A stretch of 64,000 bases of DNA from the human T2T-CHM13v2.0 reference genome, Homo sapiens (GCF_009914755.1 NC_060936.1), one strand, 5' to 3'. Positions 5,031 to 46,020 are shown, counted from the stretch's first letter. The notes: generated from the sequence alone by a model not told the origin. Program-made: numbers and translations.

Positions 5031-6691
5031 CCTATACTGAAATTTTAACTAATAAAAATTAACACGTATATATCTTTCCTTCCTGGATTCAAATTCATAA
5101 TGTCTCTCAGGTTGTGCTTGCATTTTTCTCCAACTAAAATATAAGCCACAGAAAAACAAGATTTGTTTAGTTTATTGCTATATAAAGTTGGCATCTAAGG
5201 AATATTTAATTAATAAAATAGTGAATTAGTTTTTTGAGTTTTAGATCTGGAAATAATACAAGCTGGTTATATAAGAGAAAAACTGACTCCTTCTCCAGGT
5301 GTGACTCCTTCAGTGAAGAGTAATCGCAATGTATTCGCACTTTGTACGAGTTATATACTGAATTGTCTCTGTGATGAATCCTAGTATGATACCCAGAACA
5401 TGTACAACATGTTTTTTTCTTATTACTGTAGATTAGTCAGTCATTATATTTGGTAGTTTTGATCCCAGTGGCTTTTGCTCTCTGTGAGAAATAGATTAAG
5501 TGATAATTTTCTTAATAAAATGTAGCCTTATAAGTTTCCAAGTAAATGCAATATTAGTATTCAGAGCAATAGATCTAAAAATTAGAATGACTCTTTCTCA
5601 AAAAATAGCCTTTGTATTGAGACTCTCCTTAAACAAGCTTTGACGCACACTCCAAGATGATTAGTGGAGTACATTGAACTACTCCTTCATGTTATATATT
5701 AGGAGCACACTTTTGACTCTCCGCTGCCTTGCAAGATTCTGCAATGTTTTCCAGGGCTAAGATCTGCAGAAAGTAAATTTTTGACTTCATTAGTCAATTG
5801 CTATATTTAACAGAAGTTCTTAGATGAAAGAAGCGGCAAAATGTCTATTTTTCCTCATAGCTCTTTTACTAAATTAAATTAAAACTGAGCTGTAAAAACT
5901 AATGCTTTTACTGCTTCTTTTTCTACAAAATGGAAGCATACACTGGGAGAAAATTAACTAACAAATCAGAAGTAGGTCTTATCTCCTATACTATTGCTTG
6001 CCAAGTTGCCTAGGCTTGTCCCAGCTATTTAGTGGTAAAAGGGAATTACTCTTTAATTTCACCTCATCTAAAACCAAAAAAGCACTCTGGTTTCTTGGAA
6101 TACCATTCCTTCTTACATCAAATAAATATGAACACCTTTATTATAAATTAACCAATGCTTCCCCTGAAGCCTCTCTCTGGAAACTCCCCTGTTTAGAAGA
6201 TAATAGATAGTATCTTCAAAAGCATCATCTTCCGTGAAATTTCTTTTCCAATCCAGGCAATCTTTCTTGTGATTTCTTCTTGACTAAATTGGTTTTAATT
6301 ACATTCCTGTTTGCTTTTAGTCTCATTGTCTAAATTAAATTTAGCATTAATATGATGTGTCCAAGACAGCCATGTAGTTTTATTACTTTTCCAATCTGGA
6401 TTTTTTAACAGAGGTGAATTGTAATGGCTCATATCTCTTCTTACCTTTATCTCTATCAATGAACACTTCAAACCCTTTTTGAATATACAAAATAAAATAG
6501 TATATGAAGATTCAGAGATGTTTCCACCATTAGCTAAAAATTAAAACATTTAACACTGGTATTAAAACAAAAAAAAGTACTCCTTAAAATTAACAATAAC
6601 TGAGAAAAAGATAATTTTTAAAATCCAAAATAAGAAGTTCATTTGGAATATTTAGTACAGATTAGTTTAAGCTTTCTTAGGGGAAAAGAGG

Positions 6692-7334
6692 AGCATTAGT
6701 TTCTATTGCTATGTACCAAAGCATCACACATTGAGCAGCTTCAAACACCACCTGTTTATTAGCTCACAGCTCATTGGGTAAAAAGCATGGCATACCATTG
6801 CTGGTTCTCTTTTCAGGCTATTGTAAAGCTAAGTAATGATGTAACACGGCTAATATCTTTTCTAGAGGCTCTGAGGGAAATTCTGCCGTCAAGTTCATTC
6901 TTGTCATTAGAAGAATTCAATTCCTTCCTTTTGCAAGACTGTCTGTCTTTTCCTGCTGGTCAGCCAAAGACCACTTTCAGCAACTAGAGGATCCCACCTT
7001 CATTATTTGGCATCTGGCCCCCTTCATCTTCAGGCCAGCAACAGCACCTTGAATCCTGTGCTCTTCTGACTTTCTCCATCTCTGTCCCTCTAGAATCAGA
7101 TTTGGAAGGCCAGCATGATGAGGTCAGATCCACTTGCATGATCTCCCTATTTTAAGGTCAACTGATTTGGGAACTTAATTAAATCTACTTACATATGCAA
7201 AATGCCTTTGCCATAGAATGAAAAATAATCATGACAGTAATATCTCTCAATAATCACAGATTCCACCCATACTTGAAGAGAGATTATGCAAGAGCAAGGG
7301 TCTTTATAACTCATTTCAGAATTCTGCATCCCAC
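6692..7334. mobile_element. MaLR/ERVL-type solo LTR (MLT1-like)
   Basis: Starts ATTAGTTTCTATTGCTATGTACCAAAGCATCACA...; internal AAGGTCAACTGATTTGGGAACTTAATTA; ends AGAATTCTGCATCCCACA. Confidence 0.75.
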
Positions 7335-8555
7335 AGGGAACAACGCATAATTTGGACAAAAACTACTGAGAATTTCCCCTATGAGAAAAAGAAAAAACTA
7401 TTTTGTTTCTTTGTTAAGGCAATACTAAATTTACCATTTACTATAAACCATTACTGAATAATATCGATATTTACATGGCTATTAAATACTAAAGTAAAAT
7501 TTTAGTTTTGGTTTTTATTGTGAAAGGAGTAAAAATCGAAATCATAAAAATATTCATAGATATGTAGCCACAAGGCCCTTCAGGAATCAATTTTTTTTAA
7601 TTGTTTTCTTATAAAGTGTGTGAATCATACTGGCTTCAGTCAGCCTTGCAGAGAAATAAAGACCTTGACAGCCAAGTAGCTAATGAAGGCAGTAGAATTT
7701 TCAGCATCTTGTCATTTGCTGCCATCTCTGCCACCACCTCTGTGCCCCAGGGAATTAGCTATTTGAAGAAGGGTCAAAGGGCCTCAAATGGTGTTGGAGC
7801 TTGCATGTAAAATGACACCATCTTGACTCAATGCTAAATGTGCTTGAAGAGAGTAAATAGCCAGATATAATCAGCAGTTCAAAATAATAAATTTGAAAAA
7901 TAAGGCAATATAAGTGCTGTTGTGTTAATAAAGATGAAAAAGCCCATCATTCCCAGCACCATAAGATTCATTTTAAAAAATAAAACAATTTACAGACAAG
8001 TAAGAAATGCCACTACGTAAATTTCAAATTTTATTTAATAAAAATTATTCTGCCATCTATATTTTTAATTTTTTTTTAAATTTTGACAATTAGTGAGGTA
8101 TTTTAGTCCTTTCAGCACATCAGGTATTTTCTACGTGAATATTTTGAATCCATCCACCTATTTCCAAATTCATTTTAGTTACTGTATTATAAGAATCTGA
8201 TATCAAAATGAAAATCCTCATTTGCCTAAAATGTTGCTTCAGAAATGAAACTAAAATAAATAATATTCATTACTTATCCTCTTACATTTTGTAGGGTGTG
8301 TCTGTAGAGAGATGTTAATGCAAAGATTTTCACTTTGCAAATTGTTAAGCATTTACAAAGCATTTACAAAGCAGCAGACAAATGTTTACAAATACTTTCT
8401 TGGATTTAAAAACATTTTCTCCTTTGCATCAGAAATTGAGTTCTTTCCAACCTCTTTCCAACCTCCTTGGACTCCTAGAAAACTGCTCAATAGCTTGAGA
8501 TTGCAGGTACCTCGTTCTTAGTCCAGGCATTATAATATCTACTACTGACTGAATA

Positions 8556-8681
8556 TAGATGGTCATCAATTTACCATGGTTCAACTTACAAGTTTTTTAC
8601 TTTACATTGCTGCAAAAGCAATATGCATTCAGTAGAAACTGTATTTCGAGTACCCATACAACCATTGTTTTTCACTTTCAG
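8556..8681 (-). mobile_element. MER47A (Tigger-derived MITE), piece 1 of 3
   Basis: TA|TAGATGGTCATCAATTTACCATGGTTCAACTTAC...CATTCAGTAGAAACTGTATTTCGAGTACCCATACAACCATTGTTTTTCACTTTCAG; terminal inverted repeat with TA target site at 8554-8555. Confidence 0.85.
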
Positions 8682-16690
<8,009 letters not shown>

Positions 16691-16859
16691 TAAATTACAT
16701 GAGATATTCAGCACTTTATTTTAAAATAGTCTTTGTGCTAGATGATTTTGCCCAACTGTAGGCTAAGATAAGTGTTCTGAGCATGTTTAAAGTAGGCTGG
16801 GTGATGTTCAGTAGATTAGGGATATTAAATGCATTTTTGACTTAACGGTATTTTCAACT
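16691..16859 (-). mobile_element. MER47A, piece 2 of 3
   Basis: TAAATTACATGAGATATTCAGCACTTTATT...GATGATTTTGCCCAACTGTAGGCTAA...ATTAAATGCATTTTTGACTTAACGGTATTTTCAACT; stops ~50 bp short of the element end. Confidence 0.85.
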
Positions 16860-18080
16860 AGATATTAAAGGAGGATTATTGCATCACTGTTTGAAACTTA
16901 TGAAGAGATACAAGGTAATAATTTATCAAAAGAACAAATATTTTTAAAGTTATCTTGTGCCTGTACAATTACATACTTTACAATAATAAACAAATAATTT
17001 GCAGTCATTTAAGAGAAAAGGTCTACCTATTGTTATTGACATGGGAAGTTTTTCAAGAATGTGTTGAGGAGTAAAAGTAAGATACAGAAAATAATGCATG
17101 GCATGATCTTATTTGCTTAAAAAATTGCAACTCCACTTATTTGCAATAGTAGAATATAAAAAACCAGCAATAATCACACTAACCACGTAACTGTAGTCAA
17201 CTCTGGGTGGAATTTGGAAAGGAGAGAAAAGAAGATGAGAATTTCACTTTTTATCCTACACCATTTACTTCATTTACTATTCTACTGTTTGACTTCTTAC
17301 AACTGGAAGTGTTAGCGATGGGAGTTATTTGAGTCACACGGCACCAAAATATGTTAGTGGTGGTGAATCCATACAAGTCTGCAACAACCTCAATTTGTGT
17401 CTCCTTAGAAGAAATAATTTGACTGAGGGGCGTAAGGCAGAAGGAGAGACCAAGGGAAGGATTAGAGAAGTGAAACTTTATTAAAAAAACTTTAGAGCAG
17501 GAACAAAAGGAAGCAAAGCACACTTGGAAGAGGGCCAAGTGGTCGACTTGAAAGACAAGTGCGCGGTTTGACTTTTTGACTTGGGGTTTTATATGTTGGC
17601 GTACTTCTGGGATCTTGTGTTCCCTCTTCCTGGCTTCTTTCTTGGGCTGGGCTGCATGAACAGTAGCGGGCTAGGCCTTGTGAGGGGAGCATGCGCAGTG
17701 TTTACTGGCATTGTACGCATGCTCCCCTGAGGTGTTCTTCCCTTACCAGCTGAGTGTCCCTGGGAGGTCATTTAGCAGTTAAACTCCACCATTTTGCCTC
17801 TTAGTGCGCATGTGTGAGACCACTTGCTCAACTCCTAAGATCTTATTGGGAAGTTGCCGATCACCAGTTTCAGGTTTTTTTTTTATCTATAGGGAGACTG
17901 ACTATCCCTGGTGCTGGCTGTGAACAGTTATTATTTCAGAAAGACAGTGTAACAATTGCCTGACCATCACCTGATGGTCGTCTGACATTTCTGGTGGTGG
18001 CAGACACTCTTCTGTCCCTGCTCATGCCTGACTAGCTACCTACTGTAATAGAAGGTATGATTTTTGTAATTTAAAAAATA
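16860..18080 (+). mobile_element. L1ME 3' region (continuation of the L1ME at 27395-27625), interrupted by MER50
   Basis: AGATATTAAAGGAGGATTATTGCATCACTGTTTG...TTGCAGTCATTTAAGAGAAAAGG...TTGACATGGGAAG...GCATGATCTTATTT follows the L1ME 3' consensus order. Confidence 0.7.
17310..18050 (-). mobile_element. MER50-family ERV1 solo LTR
   Basis: LTR-type ends (TGTTAG...TGTAATA); 4-bp TSD GAAG at 17306-17309 and 18051-18054; reverse-complement similarity to 18406-19107. Confidence 0.88.
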
Positions 18081-18093
18081 TGTACTGTAAGTA

Positions 18094-18138
18094 TTATATA
18101 TATATATACACACACACATATATATAGAGAGAGAGAGA
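18094..18138. repeat. Compound (TA)n(CA)n(TA)n(GA)n microsatellite
   Basis: Seen directly. Confidence 0.9.
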
Positions 18139-18405
18139 TTCTATATGTAGTTTCTAATTGTAAAAGGTAAAGTTCATAGATTTAGTAGGGCCATGTAGTT
18201 GACTTCATCTGGCTTTGCAATTAAGTACTGATGTTTCAACATTGGCAATGTTGCCAAGATGTTTTATTCTCCACCCTCAGCCACAACTTGTTTATATAAA
18301 AAACTAATAATTAGATTAATCAATCATGTGATTTTTTTAAATGAAATGATAGTTGTACTAATGGATATTCCTGAAAACTCTTGTTAGAAGTCAAATAAGT
18401 AATAT

Positions 18406-19107
18406 TGTTAGAGGAGGTAGCTAAGCAGACATGAGCAGGGCAAGAGGGGTTCCTCTCCTCCAGGATTATCAGGCTACCATCAAGTGATAGTCAGGTGGTT
18501 GTTAAACTGTCTCTCTAAAATAATAACTGGTGGTAGCAAGTGTCAGGGAAAGGCAGTCTCCCAATAAATAGAAAACACCTCAGGCTGGTGATCAGAAGCT
18601 TTCTGAAAAGATCTCAGGAGTTGGGCGAGTGGGCTCAAATATTGCATTAAGTGGCAAAATGGCAAAGTTTAACTGGCATATGACCTTCCTCTAGGAACAC
18701 TGGACTGGTAAGGGAAAAATGCCTCAAATAAACATGCACACAACTTCAGTAAACACACTGTGCATGTGGCCCCTCCTAAGTGCTGGCAGACCACTGCACA
18801 TGCAGGCAGCTCACCCCAAGAGAAAAATCAAGGAAGGAGAAATGGAAACCCTGGAACCATGTCAATAGATAAAACCCAAGTCAAAGTGGGACGGAACACT
18901 TGGATCTCTCAAGTCACCCACTTGGCCCTCTTCCAAGTTTACTTTACTTCCTTTCGTTCCTGCTCTAAAACTTAATAAGCTTTTACTCCTGCTGTAAAAT
19001 TTGCCTTGGTCTCTCACTCTTCCTTATGCCCCTCAGCCGAATTCTTTCCTCCGAATAGGCAAGAATGGAATTTACTGAAGACTGGTATGGATTCGCCACT
19101 GGTAACA
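18406..19107 (+). mobile_element. MER50-family ERV1 solo LTR
   Basis: TGTTAGAGGAGGTAGCTAAGCAGACATGAGCAGGGC...GGATTCGCCACTGGTAACA; 4-bp TSD ATAT at 18402-18405 and 19108-19111. Confidence 0.88.
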
Positions 19108-19650
19108 ATATGCATAATTTGTGTGTTTTCAGGTTGCTATAGTCATTTCAAAATGAAAAATTTTAAGTACAAACTTAATACCTTTTGAACACATATCAAA
19201 CTTACAATGTCTTCAGTAGGCTTAAAAATAAAATATGAAATTGCTCTTCACTAAAAGCAAGCAACTATTTAGTAAAATAAACCCCATGGGTTCAGGTTTT
19301 AGTTTTATCTTATGTAATGTTTGCATTGAGTTTTTAGTAACAGTTATTTCATGATATATTCACTGACATTAACCAGAAGAAAGCACAGTACCAGTCACAT
19401 TATAAACTCTAATATTGCTTGATTTATCCACTTTTATTGGCCATCCATAGGGAACTGCCTTTAATATCCTTGGTATTAATGGAAAGTATACTTCATTAGA
19501 GAAGGAAAAATCATTATAAACAAAATAATAGAAGTAAAATGTTTGTCTAGAGTAAGATATAGGATCATGAAAATAATAACTTAGAGGATCTATTCTGCCT
19601 TCACCTAACCATAGCTCTCATACCCATGACTTAGAATTTAATAAGAATTA

Positions 19651-19941
<291 letters not shown>

Positions 19942-20419
19942 ACAATTTTTTTAATTAAATAAGTAGTATGCCAGGACTTTATAGCAGTGTATCATGTCCC
20001 TTTTCTGTTTAAAATTTTTAAATTTTCCTTGACTTCCTACTGTCATCAATAAAGGTAAAACTTCTTGGCATATCAACCAGGGCAGATTCATGAACCTGCC
20101 AAACTCTTTAGCCTCACTTTACATCCAATCCACACCATGATAGCTGCCTTCTACCCTTGTGCATATTGCTGCCGTAGTTCCCTAGGTAAACTGAATGCCA
20201 AATGTAGGCATCTGGGAATAAAAGGAAACACACATCTATCTCATCTCACTTCCCCAAATGATAAAGATTAGTTTAGATGAATATATCTAGAATGTTGCCA
20301 ATAGAAAATCTAGGAAAATAAAAGTATTTTAATTTCAGCATCTACAATATCTTGTGTCATTTCAAAAAATAGTGTTTCATTTTGAGTTTCCACCTAAAGG
20401 TCTTTCTCTAGCCCTACCT

Positions 20420-20757
20420 CACTGATTTCACACATGCTTTTCCTTCTTGAGATGTCCTTCACTCATCTCATCTCACTTCATTTCACCCAGGCTATCCTTC
20501 ATCTTATCCTCCACCTGATTGACTTTAATTCATTTACCAGAAATAGCTGCTGACATCATCTCTGCCAGGAAGGTTTTCCCAATATCTTTCCCTTGGGTTA
20601 GGTATTCTTTCTTTGTGGTTCCCAATATGTACCATGAAAACACATCTACTGCAATATGGACTCATTTTATTATAATCATTTATTTATATGTCTCTTTCCT
20701 CTCTACATATAAGCTGGTTTATTGAATGAATGAATAAATAAATAAATGAGTGAATAA
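20420..20757 (+). mobile_element. L2 3' relic
   Basis: Ends TTTATTGAATGAATGAATAAATAAATAAATGAGTGAAT, the L2 tail motif. Confidence 0.5.
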
Positions 20758-21925
20758 GTTTGTGGAAGAATATTTCTTTTTTTATATTTTACATTTTTAA
20801 AAAGAATTGTTTCTCAAATCCTCACATATATATGTTCATATAATTTATACTGTTCATAGAATATAGTGCTATCCAATGAACTGAAGAACAAAATAGAATA
20901 AATTATGATCACCCTTCTAGTAGAAAGCCATTAATTTATCTTTTAGAAAATGCCACTGACAAGGTCAAAATTGCCAAAAGAAAGAATGGCATTGAGCAAT
21001 GTTCACCACTAAGCAGTCTTTATTTAATTGGCATTTAAGGGATTTTCAAAAGGTGCCTGGTCAAAGAGATGTATAGTAGCCTTATGCTGAGCACTATTTA
21101 ATTATTTCAGTCCTCATCTGTCACATTCGCACTCTCCTGTCTCATTTTCAGTGTCCTCAAAGCAATGCAGTTGATAGATTATGGAAAATAAATCTAGTGT
21201 GGAAATACTCATAATTTCCTCTAGGTCAAAAGAAAAAAAAATCACCACATTGGCAAGAGTAATTTGCAACTACTAAATTGCTAGATATAAAGCTCTGGCT
21301 TGCTGCTCTGCAAAAGGTGGGAGGGGGCTTGACGAGAGTCAAGACTCTTTAGAGAAGTATGCAAATCAAAAATTTACCTCCTCTTTAAACCTTTTTAATT
21401 CTTCAATTAATCTCAACAATGACCCAGTTTTTAGAACACTGAATATGCGTGGCCACCTAATCACATTATCTCACTTCTCTTCAGCAAACTTTGAAGTGGG
21501 AAAGATACATGTATAAATGAAAACATTGATAAAGCACAGCTGCCTGTCACATTTCCAGTCTTCTCGGGAAAACAAGTGATTTACAGCATGATGAGATCAA
21601 ATCTTCCTCTACGGCATGCCATTGCCTATATTTTAAAACTCAGTTAGGGGAACTCATGCAATAGCCCAGGCTGATGACATTAACGTCAGATCTTTGAGCA
21701 AATCTAGTTAACGTAAAAGCAAGAGAGAAAGATGATCTCATTTTGGAAACAACAATAAAAATGATGCTGTTCAGTAAGAATTGAGACCATGAGGGTTTAA
21801 TGCTGTATCTTTGAGCTTGTCTTTTATTAGCCAACTTTCCACTATAAAATACATTAAAAATTCATTTATGGAGAATATAGCTCAGAACTGTTATAAAGTG
21901 GATGTTTTGTTAAAGAAAAAAGATC

Positions 21926-24900
21926 TGGGTGGGGTGGCTGGCAAGATGGCCAAATAGGAACAACTCCCGTCTGCAGCTCCCAGCAAGATCAACACAGAAG
22001 GTGGGTGATTTCTGCATTTCCAACTTAGGTACATGGCTCATCTCATTGGGACTGGTTAGATAGTGGATGCAGCCCACGGAGGGCGAGCCAAAGCACAGTG
22101 GGGCATCACCTCACCTAGGAAGCACAAGGGGTCAGAGAACTGCCTCCCCTAACCAAGGAAAGTTGTGAGGGACTGTGCCATGAGGAACGGTGTGTTCCAT
22201 CCCCAGAAACTAGGTTTTTCCATGGTCTTTGCAACCCACAGACCAGGAGATTCCCTCGGTGCCTGTATCACTAGGGCCCTGGGTTTCAAGCACAAAATTG
22301 GGTGGCAGTTTGGGCAGACACGAAGCTGCTCCAGGAGTTTTTTTTGTACCCCAGTGGCGCCTGGAATGCCAGTGAGACAGAACCGTTCTCTCCCATGGAA
22401 AGGGGAGTGAAGCCAGAGAACCAAGTGGTTTAGCTCAGTGGATCACACCCCCATAGAGCCCAGCAAGCTAAGATCCAGTGGCTTGAAATGCTCGCTGCCA
22501 GCACAGCAGTCTGAAGTTGATCTGGGACTGTCCAGCTTGCTGGGAGGAGGGGCATCCGCCATTACTGAAGCTTGAGTAGGCAATATTCCCCTCACAGTGT
22601 AAACAAAGCTCCTGGGAAGTTTGAACTGGGCAGAGCCTGCTACAGCTTGGCAAAGCCGCTGTAGCCAGACTGCCTCTCTGGATTCTTCCTCTCTGGACAG
22701 GGCATTTCTGAAAGAAAGGCAGAAGCCCCAGTCAGGGGCTTATAGATAATACTCCCATCTCCCTGGGACAGAGCACCTGGGGGAAGGGGCGGTTGTGGGC
22801 ACAGCTTCAGCAGACTTAAACGTTCCTGCCTGCCACCCCTGAAGAGAGCAGTGGATCTCCCAGCACAGCATTCAAGCTCTGCTAAGGGACAGATGGCCTC
22901 CTCAAGTAGGTCCCTGACCCCCATGCCTCCTGACTGGGAGACACCTCCCAACAGGTGTGAACAGACACCTTACACAAGAGAGCTCTGGCTGGCATCTGGC
23001 AGGTGCCCCTCTGGGACAAAGCTTCCAGTGGAAGGAACACACAGCAATCTTTGCTGTTCTGCAGCCTCCGCTGGTGATACCCAGGCAAACAGGGCCTGGA
23101 GTGGACCTCTAACAGACTCCAGCAGACCTGCAGCAGAGGGGCCTGACTCTTAGAAGGAAAACTAACAAACAGAAAGGAACAGCAACAACATCAACAAAAA
23201 GGATGTCCACACAAAAACCCCATACTAAGGTCACCAGCTTCAAAGACCAAAGGTAGATAAATCCACAAAGATAAGGAAAAACCAGCGCAAAAAGGCTGAA
23301 AATTCCAAAAACTAGAACATCTCTTCTCCTCCAAAAGATCACAACTTCTTGCCACCTAGGGAACAAAACTGGACAGAGAATGAGTTCGATGAATTGACAG
23401 AAGTAGGCTTCAAAAGGTGGGTAATAACAAACTCCTCCGAGCTAAAGGAGCATGTTCTAACCCAATGCAAGGAAGCTAAGAATCTTGAAAAAAGGTTAGA
23501 GGAATTGTTAACTAGAATAACCTGTTTAGAGAAGAACATAAATGACCTGATGGAGCTGAATAACACAACACAAGAACTTCATGAAGCATACGCAAGTATC
23601 GATAGCCAAATTGATCAAGCACAAGAAAGGATATCAGAGATTGAAGATCAACTTAATGAAATAAAGCATGAAGACAAGATTAGAGAAAAAAGAATGAAAA
23701 GGAATGAAAAAAGCCTCCAAGAAATATTGGACTATGTGAAAAGACCAAACCTACATTTGATTAGTGTACCTGAAAGTGACAGGGAGAATAGAACCAAGTT
23801 GGAAAACACTCTTCAGGATATTATACAGGAGAACTTCCCCCAACCTAGCAAGACAGGCCAACATTCAAATTCAGGAAATACAGAGATGACCACAAAGATA
23901 CTTCTCAAGGAGAGCAACCCCAAGACACATAATTGTCAGGTTCACCAAGGTTGAAATGAAGGAAAAAATGTTAAGGGCAGCCAGAGAAAAAGGTGGAGTT
24001 ACCCACAAAGGGAAGCCCATCAGACTAACAGTAGATCTCTCTGGAGAAACCCTACAAGCCAGAAGAGAGTGGGGGCCAATATTCAACATTCTTAAAGAAA
24101 AGAGTTTTTAACCCAGAGTTTCCTATCAGCCACACTAAGCTTCATAAGCTAAGGAGGAATAAAATTCTTTATAGAAAAGCGAATGCTGGGAGATTTGTCA
24201 CCACCAGACCTGCCTTACAAGAGCTCCTGAAGGATGCTCTAAATATGGAAAGGAAAAACCAGTACCAGCCACTGCAAAAACATAACAAATTGTAAAGACA
24301 ATCAACACTATGAAGAAACTGCATCAACTAACAGGCAAAATAACCAGCTAGCATTATAATGACCTGATCAAATTCACAGATAACAATATTAACCTTGAAT
24401 GTAAATGGGCTAAATGCCCCAATTAAAAGACACAGACTAGCAAATTGGATAAAGAGTCAAGACCCATCAGTGTGCTGTATTCAGGAGACCCATCTCACGT
24501 GCAAAGACACATATAGGCTCAAAAATAAAGGGATGGAGGAATATTCACCGAGAAAATGGAAAGCAAAAAAAAGCAGGCGTTGCAATCTTAGTCTCTGATA
24601 AAACAGACTTTAAACCAACAAGGATAAAAAAAGACAAAGAAGAACATTACATAATGGTAAAGGGATCAATGCAACAAGTGGTAACTATCCTAAATATATA
24701 TGCACCCAATAGAGGAGCATCCAGATTCATAAAGCAAGTTCTTAGAGATATACAAAGAGATTTAGACTCCCCTACAATAATAGTGGGAGTCTTTAACACT
24801 CCACTGTCATTAGACAGATCAACAAGACAGAAAATTAACAAGGATATCCAGGGCTTGAACTCAGCTTTGGACCAAGCAGACCTAATAGACATCTACAGAA

Positions 24901-26302
24901 CTCTCCACCCCAAATCAACAGAATATACATTTTTCTCAGCAGCACATCTCACTTATTCTAAAATTGACCACATAATTGGAAGTAAAACACTCCTTAGCAA
25001 ATGCAAAAGAATGGAAATCATAACAAACAGTCTCTCAGACAACAGTGCAATCAAATTAGAACTCAAGATTAAGAAACCCACTCAAAACCATGCAACTATG
25101 TGGATACTGAACTACCTGCTTCTGAATGACTACTGAGTAAATAAAGAAATTAAGGCAGAAATAAATAAGCTCTTTGAAACCAGTGAGAACAAAGACACAA
25201 ATACCAGAATCTCTGGGAAACAGCAAAAGCAGCATTTAGAGGGAAATTTATAGCACTAAAATGCCCACAGGAGAAAGCAGGAAAGATCTAAAATTGACAA
25301 CCTAACATCACAATTAAAAGAACTAGAGAAGCAAGAGCAAACAAATTCAAGAGCTGGCAGAAGAGAAGAAATAATTAAGATCAGAGCAGAACTGAAGGAG
25401 ACAGAGACATGAAAAACCTTTCAAAAAATCAATGAATCCAGGAGCTGGTTTTTTTAAAAGATTAACAAAATAGACCACTAGCCAAACTAATAAAGAAGAA
25501 AAGTGAGACGAATCAAATAGGCACAATAAAAAATGATAAATGGACTATCACCACTGATCCCACAGAAATACTAATTACCATCAGAGAATACTATAAACAC
25601 CTCTATGGAAATAAAATCTAGAAAATCTAGAAGAAATGGAGAAATTCCTGGACACATGCACCCTCCCAAGACTAAACCAGGAAAACAGTCAAATCCCTGA
25701 ATAGAACAATAACAAGTTCTGAAATTGAGGCAGTAGTAGCCTACCAACCAGAAAAACAAAACAAAACAAAAAAAAACAAAAAACCCAAGACCAGACAGAT
25801 TCACAGCTGAATTCTACCAGAGGTATAAAGAGAAGCTGGTAACGTGCCTTCTGAAACTATTCCAAACAATAGAAAAAGAGGGACTCCTCCCTAACTCATT
25901 TAATGAGGCCAGCATCATCCTGATAGCAAAACCTGGCAGAGACACAACAAAAAAAGAAAATTGCAGGCCAATATCCCTGATGAACATTGATGCGAAAATC
26001 CTCAATAAAAGAATGGCAAACCAAATCCAGCAGCACATCAAAAAGCTTATCCACCATGATCAAGTTGGCTTCATCTCTGGAATGCAAGACTGGTTCGACA
26101 TACAGAAAGAAATAAATGTAATCCATCAAATAAACAGAAGCAATGACAAGAACCACATGATTATCTCAATAGATGCAGAAAAGGCCTTTGATAAAATTCA
26201 ACAACCCTTCATGCTAAAACCGCTTAATAAACTACGTATTGATGGAACGTATCTCAAAATAATAAGAGCTATTTATGACAAACCCATAGTCAATATCATA
26301 CT
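21926..26302 (+). mobile_element. LINE-1 (L1PA7/8-like): intact 5' end, ORF1 and first half of ORF2; truncated at the 3' side within RT
   Basis: GGGGTGGCTGGCAAGATGGCCAAATAGGAAC 5' UTR after a TT/AAAG target site; ORF1 peptide (ORF 23349-23954); EN peptides NVNGLNAPIKRHRL and YSKIDHIIGSK; RT peptide [13 protein letters not shown]; ends abruptly at AATATCATACT. Confidence 0.95.
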
Positions 26303-26351
26303 CACAAGGGGTTTATTGGGAGGTCACCCATCATAAGTTGTGGAGCATCTG
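26303..26351 (-). mobile_element. MER47A, piece 3 of 3 (terminal 49 bp)
   Basis: CACAAGGGGTTTATTGGGAGGTCACCCATCATAAGTTGTGGAGCATCTG|TA is the missing end of the element, with the TA target-site copy at 26352-26353. Confidence 0.8.
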
Positions 26352-26353
26352 TA

Positions 26354-26520
26354 TTGTTCAGTGCCAGAGACTGCTCCAAGCTTTCCTCCCTTAAACTATA
26401 AAATTATTATAATTCTATGTAAAAGGTGAAAAACTAAAAATCAAAAACATTTGGCAATTTGCCTAGAGTAGTAAGTGGCAGAATGGAAATTAACTGAATT
26501 TGGGACTCCCTAAATCCTTA
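26354..26520 (-). mobile_element. MIR (host of MER47A; its other tip lies at ~8530-8555)
   Basis: GTGCCAGAGACTGCTCCAAGC...GGTGAAAAACTAA...AATTTGCCTAGAGTAGTAAGTGGCAGAA matches antisense MIR. Confidence 0.6.
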
Positions 26521-27394
26521 AGTAACCATTCATATAGAAAGCATGAAGGTCTAAAACAGAAGAATAAAAAGTAAAAATCAATTCATCTCTCTCAGTATGA
26601 CAATCATCATTTTTAGTAAACATTTTAAGCATCAGAATCACCACTCATTGTCCATCTGTACATTTTTTTCTTCTTCAAAAATATTTTTGGTTTGTGTTGT
26701 AGCTGCTGCCTCACTAAGTACAGTATATTTATTTCAGATCTTAGAAAACTCTTTTTTTTTCTGGAATAATCAACAACGTGAAAATTCTTATTTAAAATAG
26801 AATTAAAGCACTCTAGAAGCAAGGGACACAACAATTAGTCTCTATAGCAACTGGATATTATACAAGGAAAACGGTGAGCATGAAGGAGAATTTGGGAAGA
26901 GGTAAGAACAATTCATGTGAATTGTGAAGAGTCCTACAAGAAAGCCAGATTGTTCCCTGGGGTCTCTTTGAGGGCAGGGAGAGAGAATGAAAATACAGAT
27001 AATGAGGATGACTCTTGGCAGGTAAATGTTTGTAAAAGTAATGTCATTGTTTATAAAAGTAATGTCATAATGGAAAGGCTGCAGAGGTGAGGGGTTAAAT
27101 CCAGGAAGGGAGGTGAATGGAAACTTGAAATTTGGAAATTTTGAATAGTTTGATCTTAGCACAAACCATTTACAATAACTTTCAATATAAAAATTGAAAC
27201 ATGATATATAAGTATATGACTATTTTTCAGCATATGCTATGCATTATAATTTGGAAGAAGGCCTAGATCTCTATGTAATAGTAGAATCTCGCCTATAACT
27301 ATGTCTAACATGAGAGGCAGAAGGTTTAATAAAATATTTTTAAATTGCCATTAGTCCTGCCTTCACTCATTTAGTTTCAATGAATGACATTTCT

Positions 27395-27625
27395 AGTTTA
27401 AAAAAATAGCATATGAAAATTTCCTCCAATGAAATACCATATTTAGTCCATAATATAAGATAAAATTTAAAAGATTTATGAAACCCAATTTTGGCAATGA
27501 TGCAGGGAAATGAGTACTCACATACATCATAAATTGTCGGTAGGAGTATCTTTCAGCTTAGCAACACTTAAATGGTGTATGGTTTTTAACTCAGCACTTT
27601 CATACCAGAGAAATATTTGCACTTA
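27395..27625 (+). mobile_element. L1ME fragment (ORF2 end), broken at ~27625-27636
   Basis: CATATGAAAA...CAATGAAATACCAT...ACCCAATTTTGGCAATGATGCAGGGAAATGAGTACTCACATACA...AGAAATATTTGCAC. Confidence 0.7.
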
Positions 27626-27943
27626 TGTAGTACAAGGATCCTTAAAAGAGGAAAGAGAGAGGCAGAAGAGTGAGAGTCTGAGAAGAATATGTGACTGTGC
27701 AAGTAGATGATGGGATCACCGTTCACTTTGAAGTATGGGGCAAGGAATGCAGGCATTCTCTAGAAGCTGGAAAAGACAAGGAAAGGAAAACTCCCCTAGA
27801 GCCTCCAGAGGGCACAGCTCATTCTTTATTATTTCAGCCCAGTGAGATCTATGTTCAATTTCTGACCTCAATATTCTAAGAAAATAAATTTGTGCTGTTT
27901 TAAGCCTTACATTTGTGGTAATTTGTTATAGCAGAAATAGGAA
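27625..27943 (+). mobile_element. MLT1D-like MaLR LTR lacking its 5' end
   Basis: CAAGGATCCTTAAAAGAGG...CAAGGAATGCAGGCATTCTCTAGAAGCTGGAAAAGACAAGGAAA...CTCCCCTAGAGCCTCCAGA...AATAAATTTGTGCTGTTTTAAGCC...TTTGTGGTAATTTGTTATAGCAG. Confidence 0.85.
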
Positions 27944-29229: not shown

Positions 29230-29880
29230 GGCAAAATTTTGAAGAGAAACAGTATGTTGGCATAACCTCGAAGTAGCTTTCCAAAGATATTTATCAATTA
29301 TAAAGAGAATGTAGTAACTTTATAGTGGTGAAACTCAGCAGATACCACCTATACCAGATAATCAAGGTTAACACACTAGCAATGCGGCACATCAAAATAT
29401 TGTGCTCCCTGGTATAGCGTACTGACAAAAAGACAACACTTCTGTGGTATCCTTGCCAAAAAATGCATAATCTCCGTATGATCATGACAAAACATCAGAC
29501 AAATCCAAATATTCAACAAAATGACTTATTAGAGCTCATCAAAAGTGTCAAGGCCATGAAAGATAACAAAACATTTACAAACTATTAGTGATTGAAGGAG
29601 ACAAAGGAGTCACAATAATTAAATGCATTATGAGCTCTTAAATTTGATTCTAAAAGGGTAAAAGAAACGTTAGGCAGAAAACTGATGAAATTCAAGTAAG
29701 GCTTATGGTTTACTAAATTTATTTAGCATTCTACCAATTTTCTGGTTTTGATAATTATACAATGGTTGTGTAAGTTAACATAAGGGTGTCAGGGTATAGG
29801 TTATATGTGAACTCTCTGTATGAGTGTTAACTTTTATGTAGATCTAAAAATATTTCAAAATACAATAGTGAAAATAAATT
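29230..29880 (+). mobile_element. L1MC4/5-like 3' end
   Basis: AGTAACTTTATAGTGGTGAAACTCAGCAGATACCACCT...CATCAGACAAATCCAAAT...AAAAGTGTCAAGGCCATGAAAGA. Confidence 0.8.
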
Positions 29881-29887
29881 AAACATT

Positions 29888-30367
29888 AAAAATGTAATTG
29901 GATTAAATATTCTATTTTTTATTCCAAAATGGATGAAAGAATCAGACCCAATTTATGTCGCTTTCCAGAAACACATTTTAAATGTAAGCTAAAAATAGGT
30001 TGAAGTTAAAATGATGTAATACTAAGCACAAGAAAGCTGATATAGCTAAATTAACATCACACAAAGTAGACTTTATGACCAAAAAATATTATTACTAGAG
30101 ACAAAAAGAGATATTTCATAATAATAAAAGTGTAAATTTTTCAAGAAGCTACAAAAACCTTAACTATGCAAGCACCTAATAAAAAAGCTTTAAAATAGGT
30201 AGAAAATCAAACAGAAAAAAGTCATAGTTGAAGATTTTAATAACCCTTTGTCAGTAATTTGTAGAAGAAATGGGTCAAAATACCAGTAAAGATACAACCC
30301 TATTAAACAATCGACCTAATTGACATTTTTAGAATACAATACCCAACAACTGAAGAATACATGCTTT
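29888..30367 (+). mobile_element. Old L1M ORF2 endonuclease-region relic
   Basis: AATGTAATTGGATTAAAT...AAAGTAGACTTT...GCACCTAAT...GACCTAATTGACATTTTTAGAA...AACTGAAGAATACA. Confidence 0.7.
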
Positions 30368-37508: not shown

Positions 37509-39029
37509 TACACAGAGCCCTTACACCACCACTGATGGGAACCTTGATCACATAAGCTTTGAGGACTTCTTTCCTGTGGTTCAACTCCAGCTTCCCTTCC
37601 AGAATCTTACACAAGGCATGGTGGTTGGGGAATTCAAGTGGAGGAAGGGGAAGCAATCTGCTCTCTAGTCACTTGGATATGATGAACTTCTCTGGAACAT
37701 CCATTATCTCCATCTGCCTGAAACCAGATTCAGATTCAGAGAATCTCCAGATTCAGAGATTCTCTGCTATTCTGAGCCACTATTCAGGCATAAAAATCCT
37801 TTCCCATACTGCATACAGGGGCCATTTTTTCCCTGGACCTTGTTGTTTTGTAATGTACAGTTTTTCCTCTGCATTTGGGACACAGACCGCTCTATTTCAT
37901 TTCTCATTTCTCCCCCACCCCAACCCAGAGTTCTCTTTATAAGGATATTTGGTGTATGTGTGTTGGGGGGTGTTGTTTTGTGTACTAGTTTATTGCAAAA
38001 AAACCCATCTATGCTTTCAAATTCCTTCTTCCAAGTGTTGAGATATTTTTTTTTTAAACCAAAACTCAGAAAGACTCATGGTGAGTTAGGGGATAAGAAA
38101 AAGAGAGTACCTCAAAATGTTTACTCACCATGTTTTTGTCTATCATAGCCTTCCGTTTTGCTGGACTATAATAAAATTGGTAAAGAACTTTGGCATCCAT
38201 AAATGTCCTTTTGTTGGGAGAAGGACTCCTATCATACACCTACTGGCTAAAGCTCAGTTTGATTTAACCAATGCTTACTGAACTTTTCCTGTTTGTAATA
38301 TACTTTGCATAACACAAAGTTGAAGAAAAATAAGATGCTTGTCCTAGAGGAATTTGCAGTCTAGTGAAGAAGAAAGACGAGAACATAAATAACAGTAACG
38401 CAAAACCTGAAATGATTAATTGGCTCACAAGAGTCATAAACAAAGAGTTCTGACTGTACTGAGAAGGCAATTAATTTAAATCAGGTAATTGAAGAATACT
38501 TCAGACCAGCATTGAGTCATAGTCTACCAGAAAGAGAATATTAACAACTCTCTGGACATTTCTTCTGCTCTATGGGTAATTTGGAGCTGGGGTACAGAGG
38601 ATTATTCTGGTTCTTCGACCCCTGCATAACAGCATTTGTGTGCTTTGGAGAGTCCAGAGCTTAAAGGTAGTTTTATGCTCAAGGATTCTTCTCATACATC
38701 TTCACTCACTGTTAGAGGTCCCTCTCGCTCCCACCTCACCCCATCCATCAGTCATTATCTGCTATTCTAAAGCTTATGCATTTCAGAATCTAGGTCAGTC
38801 CTTCTCTTGCCATCTTGTCTTTTGGTGGTGGTGGTAGTATGTGTTTGTTTCTCTCTGTATTTTTTGTGTGTGTGTTTCCATTAGCTCTTTTTTTCCCCAC
38901 CTGAAAAATTGATTTCAAATTTTGAAGAAGTTGGTGCTTGGCATTTTCTGCTAACAACACTTTGGTCAGAAGCCTTTGGAAAATGAAATGTTCACATGAC
39001 AGAAAAGGAACATGAGATTTCCTTTAAAA

Positions 39030-39512
39030 ATATGAAAACCTTAAATGTATATTACAAAGTGAAAGAAGCCAATCTGAAAAGTCTACATACTGTATGATCC
39101 CAGCTCTGTGACATTCTGGAAAGACAAAACTATGGAGACAATAAAAAAAAAAAAAAAGAAAAAAAAATCAGTGCTTGCAGAGGTTAGGGTGGGAGGATGC
39201 AATGAATACACAGAGTATAGACAATGTTTAGGGCTGTGAGACTATTCTATATAACACTACAAAGATAGAAACGTCATTATACATTTGTCCAAACCCATAA
39301 AATATGCACCAAGCTTGAACCCTAATGTAAACTATGGACTTTGGGTGATCATGATGTATTAATGCAGGCTTACTAATTGTAGCAAATGTAATAATACTCT
39401 GGTGGGGGATGCTGATGGTTCGGGAGGCTGTAGCGGAAAGGGGTACAAGGGAACTCTGTACTTTCTACTTAATTTTGCTATGAAACTAAAACTTCTCTAA
39501 AAAATAAAGTCT
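39030..39512 (+). mobile_element. L1MC1/2-like 3' end
   Basis: AGTGAAAGAAGCCAATCTGAAAAG...ACCCTAATGTAAACTATGGACTTTGGGTGAT...AAAAAATAAAGTCT. Confidence 0.85.
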
Positions 39513-41289
39513 GTTCAAGAAGCTAAAAAATTAGTATGCACTGTTCTCTCTGCCCCACTTCTCACAAATTAGTGATTGCTCTCACACTCACCTAGTCACA
39601 GTACTATCTTCTGATTGTGTATGAGTCTCTGTTGTCTGTCAACCTGGGTAAGTGAAATTGTCTTTCACTTGGCAGAACATAAGTGGTAAGGAAAATCTTT
39701 GACTATCTTGGTCCACATGAAAAAAAAAAAAGATTCACTTGATTTTGCTTCCTACAATAAGTATTGTGCCTTGATGTATACTTCAAAGAGACATGGCACA
39801 GATAGAGAAAGGGCAAAAAGAAAGAAAAAAAAATCAATATGGGAAAATATCATTTCTGATTGCTGTGAACCATTTCAATGTTCCCTATTTGTTTTATCAA
39901 TCAAAGAAAGACTCTGATGGTATACAGGCTTATTCAGCACCATAGAAAATGTGTGTTTATGATGTCCAGAGAAGACAGTGTGTCCTGGCCAGTCACCATG
40001 GTAACCTCTAAAAGCAAAGATTATGTCTGATTAGGTTGCCCTTCTCAGGAGGAACTGACCAGAAAAAATCTTTTGAAAAGTTTAAAATGAAAGGTAGGAA
40101 GATACTGGTACTAATTTTGCACAGCTGTTCTCCTCCCTGACTCCCTTAATAAGAGTGACTCACGCTATTTTCTAGAACCTTTTTTCAATCCCATAGAGAG
40201 CTTCCAAAGACATCCTCCCCTTGTTGAAAATGTACCTCAGCTCAGTCCTTTGTGGTTATTGTCACCACAGCCCATAATCAGAATTCCTGATACCTTTGTG
40301 ATTGCCTGTAAAGAGATTAATGAATGTTCCGAAAGAAACAATTAAGGAAATAAAAGAAGTGAAACATAATCTGCTCTGAAAAAGTTGTGAAAGGAAGCAA
40401 AAGCTCAATCATGCCTCTCCTTCAGTGATTTGGAAGGCGAGCAAACGCCAGCAAGGTGGAAATATTGAAGAAGCCGGAAGACTACTTAATGTCATAGTTA
40501 ATTTGTGGAAGTTATTAGTGCTCTTTGTATTAAAAATAATCCTTTTTGAGCAAGATTTGTGTTTTTCTCAAGCTTCTACAGCTAATACTAGTGCCTTTAA
40601 AGCAGAGGGTATATCAGCTATTCTGCTTTCGATTTCATTTTTTACACAATGTAATAAGTGAAATTATTGGGGAGTTACTAACATAAAGAGAAGTATCAAG
40701 TAGAGGAAATGATAGGTGTACTCCTACTTAACTGAGATGGTATATTCTTACTGGACTGATAGAATATTCTAGACTGGCAATATAATTTATGTAAAGTCTG
40801 CAAAATATTTGCAAACTTTTTGGTGTTTAATAGACCTAAAAAATGGGTGGCATTAAATGTCACTGTAATCATTTACATGGTAAATGTGATTATTTATTCA
40901 ATTTATTGCATTAAAAAATCTGCATTTGAGCAAAAGATAAAAGCTAAGAGTCATTCTTTTCTCTCTTTTTATTGAAAGTAAATAGCTTTTTAAATTATAC
41001 ATGATTATTATAATAAATCTGTGGGAAATGTGGTAATATATATACAATTAAAACTGCACAACCCCTTTGCCTACAGGTTGATTTCCACGTGTACATGAAA
41101 ATGTGTTAGATGATTCTCATTGAAGCAAAAGATACAAAGCTATATAAATGCCCTCTGTGGGCACCAGGTTTAAAAATTATGATGTATCCATATGATGTAA
41201 CACAATGTTGTTTTCAAAAAGAGTGAGAACCTGCTATATAGGTCAATAAGGAATATTATCCAAATATCTTAAATGATGATGCAGCAAAT

Positions 41290-44650: not shown

Positions 44651-45844
44651 AACACCACCACCATCACCACTGACATCACCTCACCCCCACCACCTCCACC
44701 CCTCCTGTAATCAAAACAGCTTTCTACCAACAGAAAAGGGACAACAGGCAAGTTAAAATTGAAATTGGTCTTTGAACAGCAGAAACAAAATAGAAGATTG
44801 CAGATTAGAGCCATTGTCTTGTCCCAGTAATATAAACCAGACCCCCCTCAGTGCTTATTTTCTCAGAATTGAAGAAGATAAATCAAAGATTATGAGCCTA
44901 ACCAAAAAGAGGCATCCTTATGCTAGTGGCTTTTACAGTCATAAAAAGAGCAAAGCCAGAAGTGAGTATTTTCAATTGTCATTTGTAATAATTAGTAAAA
45001 ATACTGCAGTTTTCTGTCATAAATCCTGTTGTACGTGGAGGGATTTATTAATCTTTAAGCTTTGGTATTTATTGTAGACGCTACTTATACAGAGGAAACA
45101 TAAAACTAAAGGACTCAGCTTGATTTTCCTAATTCCTGAAGGTAGAATAAAATCAGAGATGCCAAAGATCTGAAAGAAACATGTGCTTGAACAGCCTGGA
45201 TAGAAGCTCATTTAAAATCAGCAATATAATTCACAGTGGGGTTTGGATGGAATACTTTAACTGACCTAGTGGTCTTAGTTTCAGAGAAAATCCGTCATAC
45301 AGTCTAAACTTAGTAAATATCTGAATATCTATCATATGCCTAACAAATGGCAAATATTGATTAACTTAAATATTATAGAGTTGAACTTAGATGATGAGAT
45401 AATTCTTTGCATTGTTAAGCAATAAAAAACATTACTAATTTGTAGGCCAAGACAGAAAAATGATTCAGAGTGAATGCAAAGGAGATGATGAATTAAGATG
45501 ATCTGATCCTTCCTGTCATAAAAAATAATCACCATTTTTCTAACCCAAATAAGAGCCACACTGAAAAGGGCTGAAATGCAGCTCTCTTTTACTTGGTGCA
45601 TATACTTAATGTCAAGTCAAGAAAGCCAGTCCTGTACCTGTATATGCCTTACTGTGTATCCATTTACAGTTGCTGATCTATGTTTACAGGCTACTCTATC
45701 TCTTAGAATGTGCTTCAGTATGTTATATATGTACTTAATATATACCAGTAATACCCATTTGTTTGAAGATAGAATATGCATGTGAAGAATTAGCTGTAAT
45801 ATTTTGGAAATATAATTAAATTTGCATTCTAAATACTTGCATTT

Positions 45845-46020
45845 AAATCTCAGCTTTGATTGTTACTGACAGTAAAACCTTAGACAATTAATTGTGCTTC
45901 TCTAATCTTCAGCTCCCTCATCTGTAATGTGAAGACAATTATGTTTTTAAGAGATGTTGGGAGGAAAGAAAGAAAACACGTACAATGGATCCAACACAGT
46001 GCACAGCAAATAGTTGAATA
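45845..46020 (+). mobile_element. MIR
   Basis: AAATCTCAGCTTTG...CTTCAGCTCCCTCATCTGTAATGTGAAGACAAT. Confidence 0.65.

What the first reader, a model, noticed from the sequence alone, without database searches (positions are those of the whole stretch)
16859..27636. Fossil complex rearrangement: a ~1.3-kb block has swapped places with a ~9.4-kb block (ancestral A-C-B-[lost]-D, now A-B-C-D)
Seen: four repeats are broken at three junctions, and the pieces fit together only in a different order. (1) MER47A stops at ...TTTTCAACT (16859), and its last 49 bp resume with no gap at 26303. (2) An L1ME stops at ...GAAATATTTGCAC(TTATGTAGTACAA) (~27623-27635), and its next consensus words (AGATAT...ATTGCATCACTGTTT) start at 16860. 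(3) The L1PA7/8 is cut mid-RT at 26302. (4) The MLT1D at ~27625 lacks its 5' end. Inference: block C (26303-~27630) originally lay between 16859 and 16860. It was excised almost bluntly and captured in a deletion further downstream. Reciprocal reuse of the breakpoints suggests local fragment shuffling (multiple breaks repaired by end joining) or serial template switching rather than retrotransposition. It must postdate the L1PA7/8 insertion, so it is primate-lineage-specific and could still be polymorphic.
Basis: partly seen in the sequence, partly recalled or inferred. Interest (0 to 1): 0.85.

Follow-up and report, generated by a model that had tools for sequence, protein, structure and literature searches.

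The report
Two neighbouring DNA blocks swapped places
In a gene-poor stretch of human chromosome 12, broken pieces of old mobile elements show that a 1.3-kb block and a 9.4-kb block most likely exchanged places and some DNA was lost, an uncommon but known kind of break-and-rejoin scar with no sign of functional consequence.

Summary
The fourth is supported only moderately.

- **Split DNA transposon.** A MER47-type element stops at 16859. Its last 49 nt resume seamlessly at 26303-26351.
- **Cut L1.** A full-5'-end L1PA-type element (21924-26302, not ~22700) is cut in the middle of its reverse-transcriptase domain.
- **Truncated LTR.** An MLT1-type LTR starts at 27632 and lacks its first ~163 nt. 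The third junction therefore lies at 27630/27632, not 27635.
- **Ancient L1, left piece.** An ancient L1 piece on the + strand is clearly present at 27422-27547 (E 1e-6) and plausibly runs to 27630.
- **Ancient L1, proposed continuation.** Its continuation at 16860 is too decayed for HMMER. Directed alignment tests give values from 0 of 1,998 to 98 of 388 controls. Consecutiveness can be stated only to about ±40 nt.

Neither block has another copy in the genome. The junctions are blunt or share 3 nt. No poly(A) or target duplication is present.

Best reading, at about 0.62: the ancestral order was A-C-B-[lost]-D, rearranged by breakage and end joining after the L1PA insertion.

No outgroup genomes, pangenome haplotypes or reads were available, so timing, fixation and single-event origin are untested. 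This is a new example of a known class, complex structural variation.

The parts
8556..8682 (+). MER47-type DNA transposon, 5' part (piece 1), preceded by TA at 8554-8555
   Evidence: 7 of 7 full copies from elsewhere in the genome match 8552-8681. Sequence read.
8683..16685 (+). Older L1 nested in the MER47-type element, ending in poly(A). An ordinary nested insertion, not part of the rearrangement.
16689..16859 (+). MER47-type element, middle part (piece 2). This is the end of block A. Junction J1 lies between 16859 and 16860.
   Evidence: 39 other genomic copies at 81-85% identity. Alignments.
16860..17306 (+). Start of block B. Putative 3' part of an ancient L1 (end of ORF2 and 3' UTR), very decayed.
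   Evidence: HMMER finds only a weak hit at 17057-17115 (E 4.1). Directed tests are mixed. It is the best-scoring place in the window outside recognised L1s (0 of 1,998 placements reach it).
17307..18055 (+). LTR-like repeat of about 750 nt inside block B, interrupting the putative L1
18394..19110 (-). Second copy of the same LTR-like repeat, inverted
21924..26302 (+). L1PA-type element with complete 5' end, cut in the middle of the reverse-transcriptase domain. This is the end of block B. Junction J2 lies between 26302 and 26303.
26303..26351 (+). Last 49 nt of the MER47-type element (piece 3), followed by TA at 26352-26353. This is the start of block C.
27422..27630 (+). Ancient L1 ORF2-3' piece at the end of block C. 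It is significant at 27422-27547; the rest is inferred.
   Evidence: 15.7 bits, E 1.4e-6 with a profile of 28 old L1 pieces. Global alignment places its end at profile positions 192-231.
27632..27943 (+). MLT1-type LTR lacking its first ~163 nt. This is the start of block D. Junction J3 lies at 27630-27632.

Best explanation
The ancestral order was A (to 16859), C (26303-27630), B (16860-26302), a lost stretch X, then D (from 27632). X held at least the 3' ~2.1 kb of the L1PA element and the first ~163 nt of the LTR.

After the L1PA element had inserted, the DNA was broken at four places within roughly 13 kb or more: A|C, C|B, inside the L1, and inside the LTR. The ends were rejoined by non-homologous end joining in the order A-B-C-D. 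Both blocks kept their orientation and X was lost.

The event was conservative, moving sequence without copying it. It left three junctions that are blunt or have 3 nt of microhomology.

Shown:
- A-end to C-start contiguity.
- Truncation of repeats at all three junctions.
- Absence of duplicates.
- Absence of retrotransposition marks.

Inferred:
- C-end to B-start contiguity.
- That all breaks belong to one event.
- The repair pathway.
For: - **A to C link.** The MER47-type element continues seamlessly from 16859 to 26303. This holds in 7 of 9 copies by BLAST and 8 of 9 in MAFFT. The element's own 3' end and a TA follow 49 nt later.
- **Breakpoints.** L1PA is cut at RVT_1 profile position ~106 of 205. 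The LTR is cut at profile position 457, against a start at ~294. The ancient L1 is cut at ~27630.
- **Conservative.** Neither 16860-17350 nor 27100-27635 has any other match in the genome; each search returned 1 candidate, itself. No duplicates were found in the window.
- **Not retrotransposition.** There is no poly(A) at 26302 and no poly(T) at 16860.
- **Junction signatures.** ACT is shared by 16857-16859 and 26300-26302. Nothing is shared at J1. At most 1 nt is ambiguous at J3.
- **C to B link, position and strand.** Both L1-like pieces lie on the + strand. C maps to old-L1 profile positions 9 to ~192-231. B maps from ~213-273 onward.
- **C to B link, scores.** The join scores 141, against 73 for the present C+D order. 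0 of 390 decoys reach it, the highest being 139. B-start is the best of 1,999 placements in the window outside recognised L1s.
- **Scan position.** In a scan of 21,248 placements, the B peak falls at the first scanned position of B, 16861. It ranks 6th, behind four clear L1s and position 38869.
- **After the LTR.** Nothing L1-like follows directly after the LTR; the best score there is 8.
Against: - **HMMER.** It never aligns an L1 profile across the join or to B-start at a significant level.
- **Real-sequence controls.** In a banded profile test, 74 of 388 and 98 of 388 controls did as well as B.
- **Free-placement tests at pre-set lengths.** These gave 95/396 and 26/396 (200 nt), 2/388 and 2/388 (300 nt), and 28/376 and 9/376 (440 nt).
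- **Post hoc boundaries.** The segment boundaries of the best-looking tests were chosen after seeing a weak hit.
- **Resolution.** C-end and B-start can be placed on the L1 only to about ±40 nt. 'No gap' is therefore not shown for this link.
- **Rival partner.** Another weak L1-like stretch at 29370-29890 on the + strand starts at about the same L1 coordinate (score 48 against 59 for B; colinear series).
- **Reference.** The reference was a home-made profile of 28 old L1 pieces from other subfamilies, not the true subfamily consensus.
- **Missing data.** No outgroup, population or read data were available.
Confidence: 0.62

Rival explanations
1. The ancestral order is the same (A-C-B-X-D), but the route went through an excised circle. 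The segment C-B was cut out and closed on itself: the L1 end joined to the MER47 tail, which is junction J2 with its ACT microhomology. The circle was then reopened between C and B and put back into the gap. The result is a circular permutation of the segment.
For: - The present order B-C is exactly a circular permutation of C-B with both orientations kept.
- The only junction with microhomology is the one that would have closed the circle.
- Nothing is duplicated.
Against: - It needs as many breaks as direct shuffling and leaves the same three junctions, so the sequence cannot tell the two routes apart.
- Three shared bases occur by chance once in 64.
- Reintegration into the very gap the circle came from is an extra assumption.
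- It depends on the same uncertain C-to-B link.
Confidence: 0.1
2. The ancestral order is the same, but it was produced by serial template switching during replication (FoSTeS/MMBIR). The polymerase jumped from A-end to B-start, from the L1 back to C-start, and from C-end forward to D.
For: There are three clustered junctions, all pieces in the same orientation, and 3 nt of microhomology at one junction.
Against: - There is no copy gain or templated insertion; each block is unique in the genome.
- Two of three junctions lack microhomology.
- Under this model, nothing explains why the second jump would land on the base right after the one where the first jump left, and likewise for C-end and B-start.
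Confidence: 0.07
3. Block B did not come from next to C. It is a 9.4-kb piece from elsewhere that was captured in a break inside the MER47-type element. The C|D junction is an unrelated deletion, and the L1-like look of B-start is chance or an unrelated L1 fragment. The true continuation of the L1 piece in C may be the weak L1-like stretch at 29370-29890, or it may be lost.
For: - B-start is not significantly L1 by HMMER.
- One control test shows nothing special.
- A rival L1-like stretch with a fitting start coordinate exists in D.
Against: - It requires two independent rare events 1.3 kb apart.
- It requires a donor site that left no copy anywhere in the genome.
- B-start outscores the rival stretch (59 against 48) and every other place tested.
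- If 29370 were the partner, the LTR's 5' truncation would have to start exactly at the L1/LTR boundary.
Confidence: 0.18
4. Assembly artefact: the order of blocks in this assembly is wrong.
For: None from these tools. Reads were not available.
Against: - The junctions lie in unique, non-duplicated sequence.
- A misassembly would not create a truncated L1 abutting the exact missing tail of a transposon.
- From knowledge, not a call: the assembly is a telomere-to-telomere one.
Confidence: 0.02

Closest known systems
Germline complex structural variants with three or more linked breakpoints (cxSV; Collins et al. 2017, PMC5338099: abstract and passages read)
   Same: It has clustered, linked breakpoints on one chromosome. 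The paper discusses repair by synchronous joining of several double-strand breaks or by replicative switching. Loss of some sequence at a junction is also a shared feature.
   Different: In that catalogue, 84% of large cxSVs involve an inversion and resolution was about 5 kb. Here there is no inversion, the blocks are 1.3 and 9.4 kb, and the event is read from fossil repeat fragments in a reference genome rather than from carriers.
Chromothripsis-like shattering and rejoining (table in PMC5338099: clustered breakpoints, blunt ends, end joining)
   Same: Breakpoints are clustered. Junctions are blunt or nearly blunt. Fragment order is changed, one fragment is lost and there is no copy gain.
   Different: The paper's table asks for many breakpoints (5 or more). 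This case has only four breaks and three junctions on a ~13-kb scale. Single-event origin is not shown.
Transposition / block interchange as a formal rearrangement operation in comparative genomics (search listing only)
   Same: Two adjacent blocks exchange places without inversion.
   Different: The literature found deals with synteny blocks of genes at large scale. It does not deal with kilobase blocks with base-pair junctions and an accompanying deletion.
Ordinary nested transposable-element insertion
   Same: A repeat is split into two pieces that fit together. The older L1 at 8683-16685 in the same MER47-type element is such a case.
   Different: Block B is not one element. It is a mosaic of at least five repeats and unique DNA, both of its ends are truncated repeats, and it has no poly(A) or target-site duplication.

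Membership tests
Multi-break cut-and-paste rearrangement (complex SV by end joining) | Three or more linked novel junctions clustered in a small region | tested here: met
   Junctions lie at 16859/16860, 26302/26303 and 27630/27632. Each has truncated repeats on both sides.
Multi-break cut-and-paste rearrangement (complex SV by end joining) | Both ends of each break are reused, so pieces fit together in another order | tested here: inconclusive
   The A-end/C-start link is exact. The C-end/B-start link fits only within about ±40 nt and with mixed significance.
Multi-break cut-and-paste rearrangement (complex SV by end joining) | No copy gain of the moved pieces | tested here: met
   Only self-matches were found in the genome for 16860-17350 and 27100-27635. 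No duplicates were found in the window.
Multi-break cut-and-paste rearrangement (complex SV by end joining) | Blunt or short-microhomology junctions without long homology | tested here: met
   The junctions share 0 nt, 3 nt (ACT) and at most 1 nt.
Multi-break cut-and-paste rearrangement (complex SV by end joining) | All junctions arose in one event | not testable with these tools
   This needs outgroup genomes or population haplotypes.
Replicative template switching (FoSTeS/MMBIR) | Copy gain or templated insertions | tested here: not met
   No duplicated segment was found.
Replicative template switching (FoSTeS/MMBIR) | Microhomology at the junctions | tested here: inconclusive
   Only 1 of 3 junctions has 3 nt of microhomology.
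L1-mediated insertion or transduction | Poly(A) at the 3' junction and a target-site duplication | tested here: not met
   The L1 ends mid-ORF2 at 26302 with no A-run. There is no T-run at 16860, and the flanks are not duplicated.
MER47-type (Tigger-like) non-autonomous DNA transposon, for the split element | Terminal inverted repeats, flanking TA, a discrete ~380-nt unit and many copies | tested here: met
   The ends of the copies are reverse complements of each other. TA flanks lie at 8554-8555 and 26352-26353. The search gave 2,608 first-look candidates, of which 40 were scored. The subfamily name MER47A was not tested.
L1 (for the cut element 21924-26302) | ORF1, endonuclease and reverse-transcriptase domains in order on one strand | tested here: met
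   Tnp_22_trimer and Transposase_22, Exo_endo_phos, and RVT_1 positions 4-106 of 205 were found. The subfamily PA7/8 was not tested. Pairwise identity to 39 other copies is 87-88%.

The most novel reading that the evidence does not exclude
The segment C-B was excised as an extrachromosomal circle in the germline, closed at the L1/MER47 junction. It was reopened at another point and reinserted into its own gap, leaving a circularly permuted segment. This would be a base-pair-resolved fossil of circle excision and reintegration in the primate germline.
Probability: 0.1. Interest if true: 0.6.

Novelty: new member of a known kind. Interest (0 to 1): 0.35.

Why it matters
If the order A-C-B is confirmed in outgroups, this locus is a clean, base-pair-resolved example of a small, inversion-free, conservative block exchange with an accompanying deletion. 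It would be fixed, or at least present, in the human lineage after an L1PA insertion.

Whole-genome alignments tend to hide such events as gaps, so their rate in primate evolution is poorly known.

The locus lies in an intron of an uncharacterised lncRNA in a gene desert. No exon or annotated functional element is touched, so no phenotypic effect is expected.

Tried and rejected
**L1 references that did not reach the old L1 pieces**
- The window's own older L1 as reference gave no significant match to either piece (BLAST, nhmmer, translated search).
- A window-wide low-stringency BLAST found no homologues of B-start, C or D-start.
- Genome searches with B-start and C-end found only themselves.
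- Profiles from 30 younger L1 copies and iterated profiles found only 27424-27547 weakly. B was never found.
- A profile of one old L1 family (24 copies) scored the C piece lower than the mixed profile, 7.3 against 15.7 bits. The closest single copies are only 52-58% identical.
- Moving the assumed C end between 27620 and 27635 did not let local alignments cross the join.
- An over-permissive alignment scheme scored the reverse strand almost as high (226 against 202) and was dropped.

**Other ideas tested and rejected**
- The L1PA element might have inserted into the LTR, so that only L1 sequence was lost. No LTR 5' part lies before 21924.
- The ~750-nt repeat at 17307 might be the 3' end of the same L1. 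The upstream flanks of 29 other copies show no consistent L1.

**Calls that failed**
Full report
**Setting.** The window is human chr12:91512001-91576000 of the T2T assembly. The whole assembly could be searched as G000. No repeat library, outgroup genome, pangenome or read set was available. I therefore used other genomic copies of each repeat as rulers. I could test the kind of element, not the subfamily.

**Junction 1 and 2, the DNA transposon.**
- The stretch 16690-16859 has 39 other scored matches in the genome at 81-85% identity, out of 2,608 first-look candidates.
- I joined 16859 to 26303 inside a script and compared the join with nine of these copies. Seven alignments ran straight through the join for another 36-53 nt. 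Two stopped at it.
- In a MAFFT alignment, eight of nine copies continue through the join column without a gap on either side. One (L008) breaks off there itself.
- The copies end 49 nt after the join and are flanked by TA, as is the window at 26352-26353. Their two ends are inverted repeats.
- Seven full copies used as queries against the window hit three places: 8552-8681 (7 of 7), 16689-16859 (7 of 7) and 26300-26355 (6 of 7).
- The first gap, 8683-16685, is an ordinary nested older L1 with a poly(A) tail.
- A chance meeting of two independent fragments with complementary truncation points, same strand, within 10 kb is very unlikely. This is my estimate, not a computed value.

**Block B's right end.**
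- Self-comparison aligns 23684-26302 with 11960-14546 of the older L1 at 76% identity. The alignment stops exactly at 26302, while the older L1 runs on for 2.1 kb to its tail.
- Open frames give ORF1 domains at 23316-23951 and endonuclease at 24453-25133. RVT_1 profile positions 4-106 of 205 end near 26276. The element is cut in mid reverse transcriptase, as claimed.
- Its 5' end is not at ~22700. Homology to 39 other copies covers all of 22400-23300 at 87-88%.
- Three fetched full-length copies place the start at 21924-21933, where their mutual homology also starts.
- That level of pairwise divergence fits an L1 of a few tens of millions of years. This is my estimate from general substitution rates, not from a call.
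- There is no A-run at 26302 and no T-run at 16860.

**Junction 3.**
- The stretch 27620-27960 matches 39 other copies. None reaches further left than query position 13, which is window 27632.
- A profile from eight fetched copies matches 27632-27943 at profile positions 457-784 (E 1.2e-68). The copies themselves begin near position 294.
- About 163 nt of the LTR's 5' end are therefore missing. They are not found anywhere else in the window.
- The junction is at 27630/27632, not 27635.

**The critical link, C-end to B-start: what failed.**
- Neither piece has any other match in the genome.
- The window's own L1 does not detect them.
- Profiles built from 30 younger L1 copies and iterated over about 300 kb detect only 27424-27547, and only weakly.

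**The critical link: the old-L1 profile.**
- A profile of 28 older L1 pieces detects 27422-27547 on the + strand at 15.7 bits, E 1.4e-6. This region is the cysteine-rich end of ORF2.
- For block B, the same profile gives only a -6.3-bit hit (E 4.1) at 17057-17115 against profile positions 442-500. That hit lies on the expected diagonal.
- Local alignments never cross the join, whatever C end is assumed.
- A profile of a single old family did worse. The closest individual copies are 52-58% identical to the C piece.

**The critical link: directed tests, for and against.**

| Test | Result for B-start |
|---|---|
| Smith-Waterman against the profile consensus, dinucleotide shuffles | 44 of 500 and 12 of 500 shuffles reach it |
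| Profile-based local alignment over the whole profile | 215, 16 and 165 of 1,000 shuffles |
| Same, restricted to the predicted diagonal band | 23 and 2 of 1,000 shuffles |
| Same band test, real 301-nt stretches of the window as controls | 74 of 388 and 98 of 388 do as well (no signal) |
| Global alignment of 16860-17117 to consensus 271-502 (61% identity) | beats 390 of 390 real controls under three scoring schemes; boundaries chosen after seeing the weak hit |
| Free placement on the consensus, 200 nt | 95/396 and 26/396 |
| Free placement on the consensus, 300 nt | 2/388 and 2/388 |
| Free placement on the consensus, 440 nt | 28/376 and 9/376 |

- In the free-placement test, B's best placement starts at consensus 218-271.
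- In a scan of 21,248 placements against consensus 271-502, the peak for B sits at 16861, the first scanned position of the block. It ranks sixth, after four clear L1s and position 38869. With segments 231-502 and 200-502 it ranks below 14th and 13th respectively.
- With the L1 start coordinate left free between 190 and 280, B-start scores 59. None of 1,998 placements outside recognised L1s reaches that; the highest is 54.

**The critical link: coordinates.**
- Global alignments put the end of the C piece at consensus 192-231 and the start of B at 213-273.
- The two pieces are thus colinear, on the same strand, and abut within about ±40 nt. Seamlessness cannot be claimed.
- The join scores 141 against 73 for the present C+D order, but one decoy reaches 139.

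**A rival partner.**
- Sliding windows show a colinear L1-like series at 29369-29893 on the + strand, starting near consensus 195. Its score is 48 against 59 for B. HMMER sees only its A-rich tail at E 9.
- Directly after the LTR there is nothing L1-like; the best score is 8.
- If 29370 were the partner, the LTR's 5' truncation would have to begin exactly at the L1/LTR boundary, which is an awkward coincidence.

**What it most likely is.**
- All three junctions are breakpoints. One old adjacency is certain and the second is probable. Nothing is duplicated.
- The junctions share 0, 3 (ACT at 16857-16859 and 26300-26302) and at most 1 nt. Both blocks keep their orientation. There are no retrotransposition marks.
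- The most economical account has four breaks: A|C, C|B, inside the L1, and inside the LTR. The fragments were rejoined as A-B-C-D by end joining. A stretch was lost that held at least the L1's 3' 2.1 kb and 163 nt of LTR.
- A foreign origin of B would need two independent rare events 1.3 kb apart and a donor site that left no copy.
- Replicative template switching explains neither the lack of copy gain nor the exact reuse of breakpoints.
- Excision of C-B as a circle with reinsertion gives the same three junctions and cannot be separated from direct shuffling.

**Comparison with what is known.**
- Complex germline variants with three or more linked breakpoints are a standing class. Each genome carries about 14 large ones, most with inversions. 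Both multi-break repair and replicative mechanisms are discussed (PMC5338099; abstract and passages read).
- The table in that paper lists blunt ends and clustered breakpoints for chromothripsis, and microhomology with copy gain for chromoanasynthesis.
- This locus fits the first pattern at miniature scale, with four breaks and no inversion.
- Searches for block interchange in primates and for circle reintegration in the germline were read as listings only. They turned up nothing on this locus or on kilobase-scale fossils of this kind. That is not proof that none is in print.

**Verdict.** It is a new example of a known kind of event, in a gene desert, with no sign of function.

Noticed in passing
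17307-18055 (+) and 18394-19110 (-): Two copies of one ~750-nt LTR-like repeat (starts TG, ends CA) lie head to head, 338 nt apart, and are 72.5% alike. Each is 74-80% like 29 other genomic copies, and those loci carry only one copy each. This inverted pair is therefore special to this locus.
   Followed up: partly
about 18095-18140: A compound microsatellite, (TA)n(CA)n(TA)n(GA)n, sits in the spacer between the two inverted LTR-like copies.
   Followed up: no
8683-16685: An older L1 of 8.0 kb is nested in the same MER47-type element that the rearrangement later split. It is longer than a usual full-length L1, so it probably carries further insertions.
   Followed up: partly
29370-29890, 38840-39135, 41040-41240, 45270-46550 (+ strand): These weak ancient-L1-like stretches were seen only with directed alignments or at nhmmer E 0.1-9. 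The first is a possible alternative partner for the L1 piece that ends at 27630.
   Followed up: partly
6687-7232 (-): A second MLT1-type LTR matches profile positions 349-798 (E 1.2e-19). It is unrelated to the junction.
   Followed up: no
18078-18100 versus 27397-27424: There are A-rich stretches of similar wording after the first LTR-like copy and just before the L1 piece in block C. They could be remnants of a target-site duplication of the ancient L1, which would tie B to C. They are too simple in composition to count as evidence.
   Followed up: no
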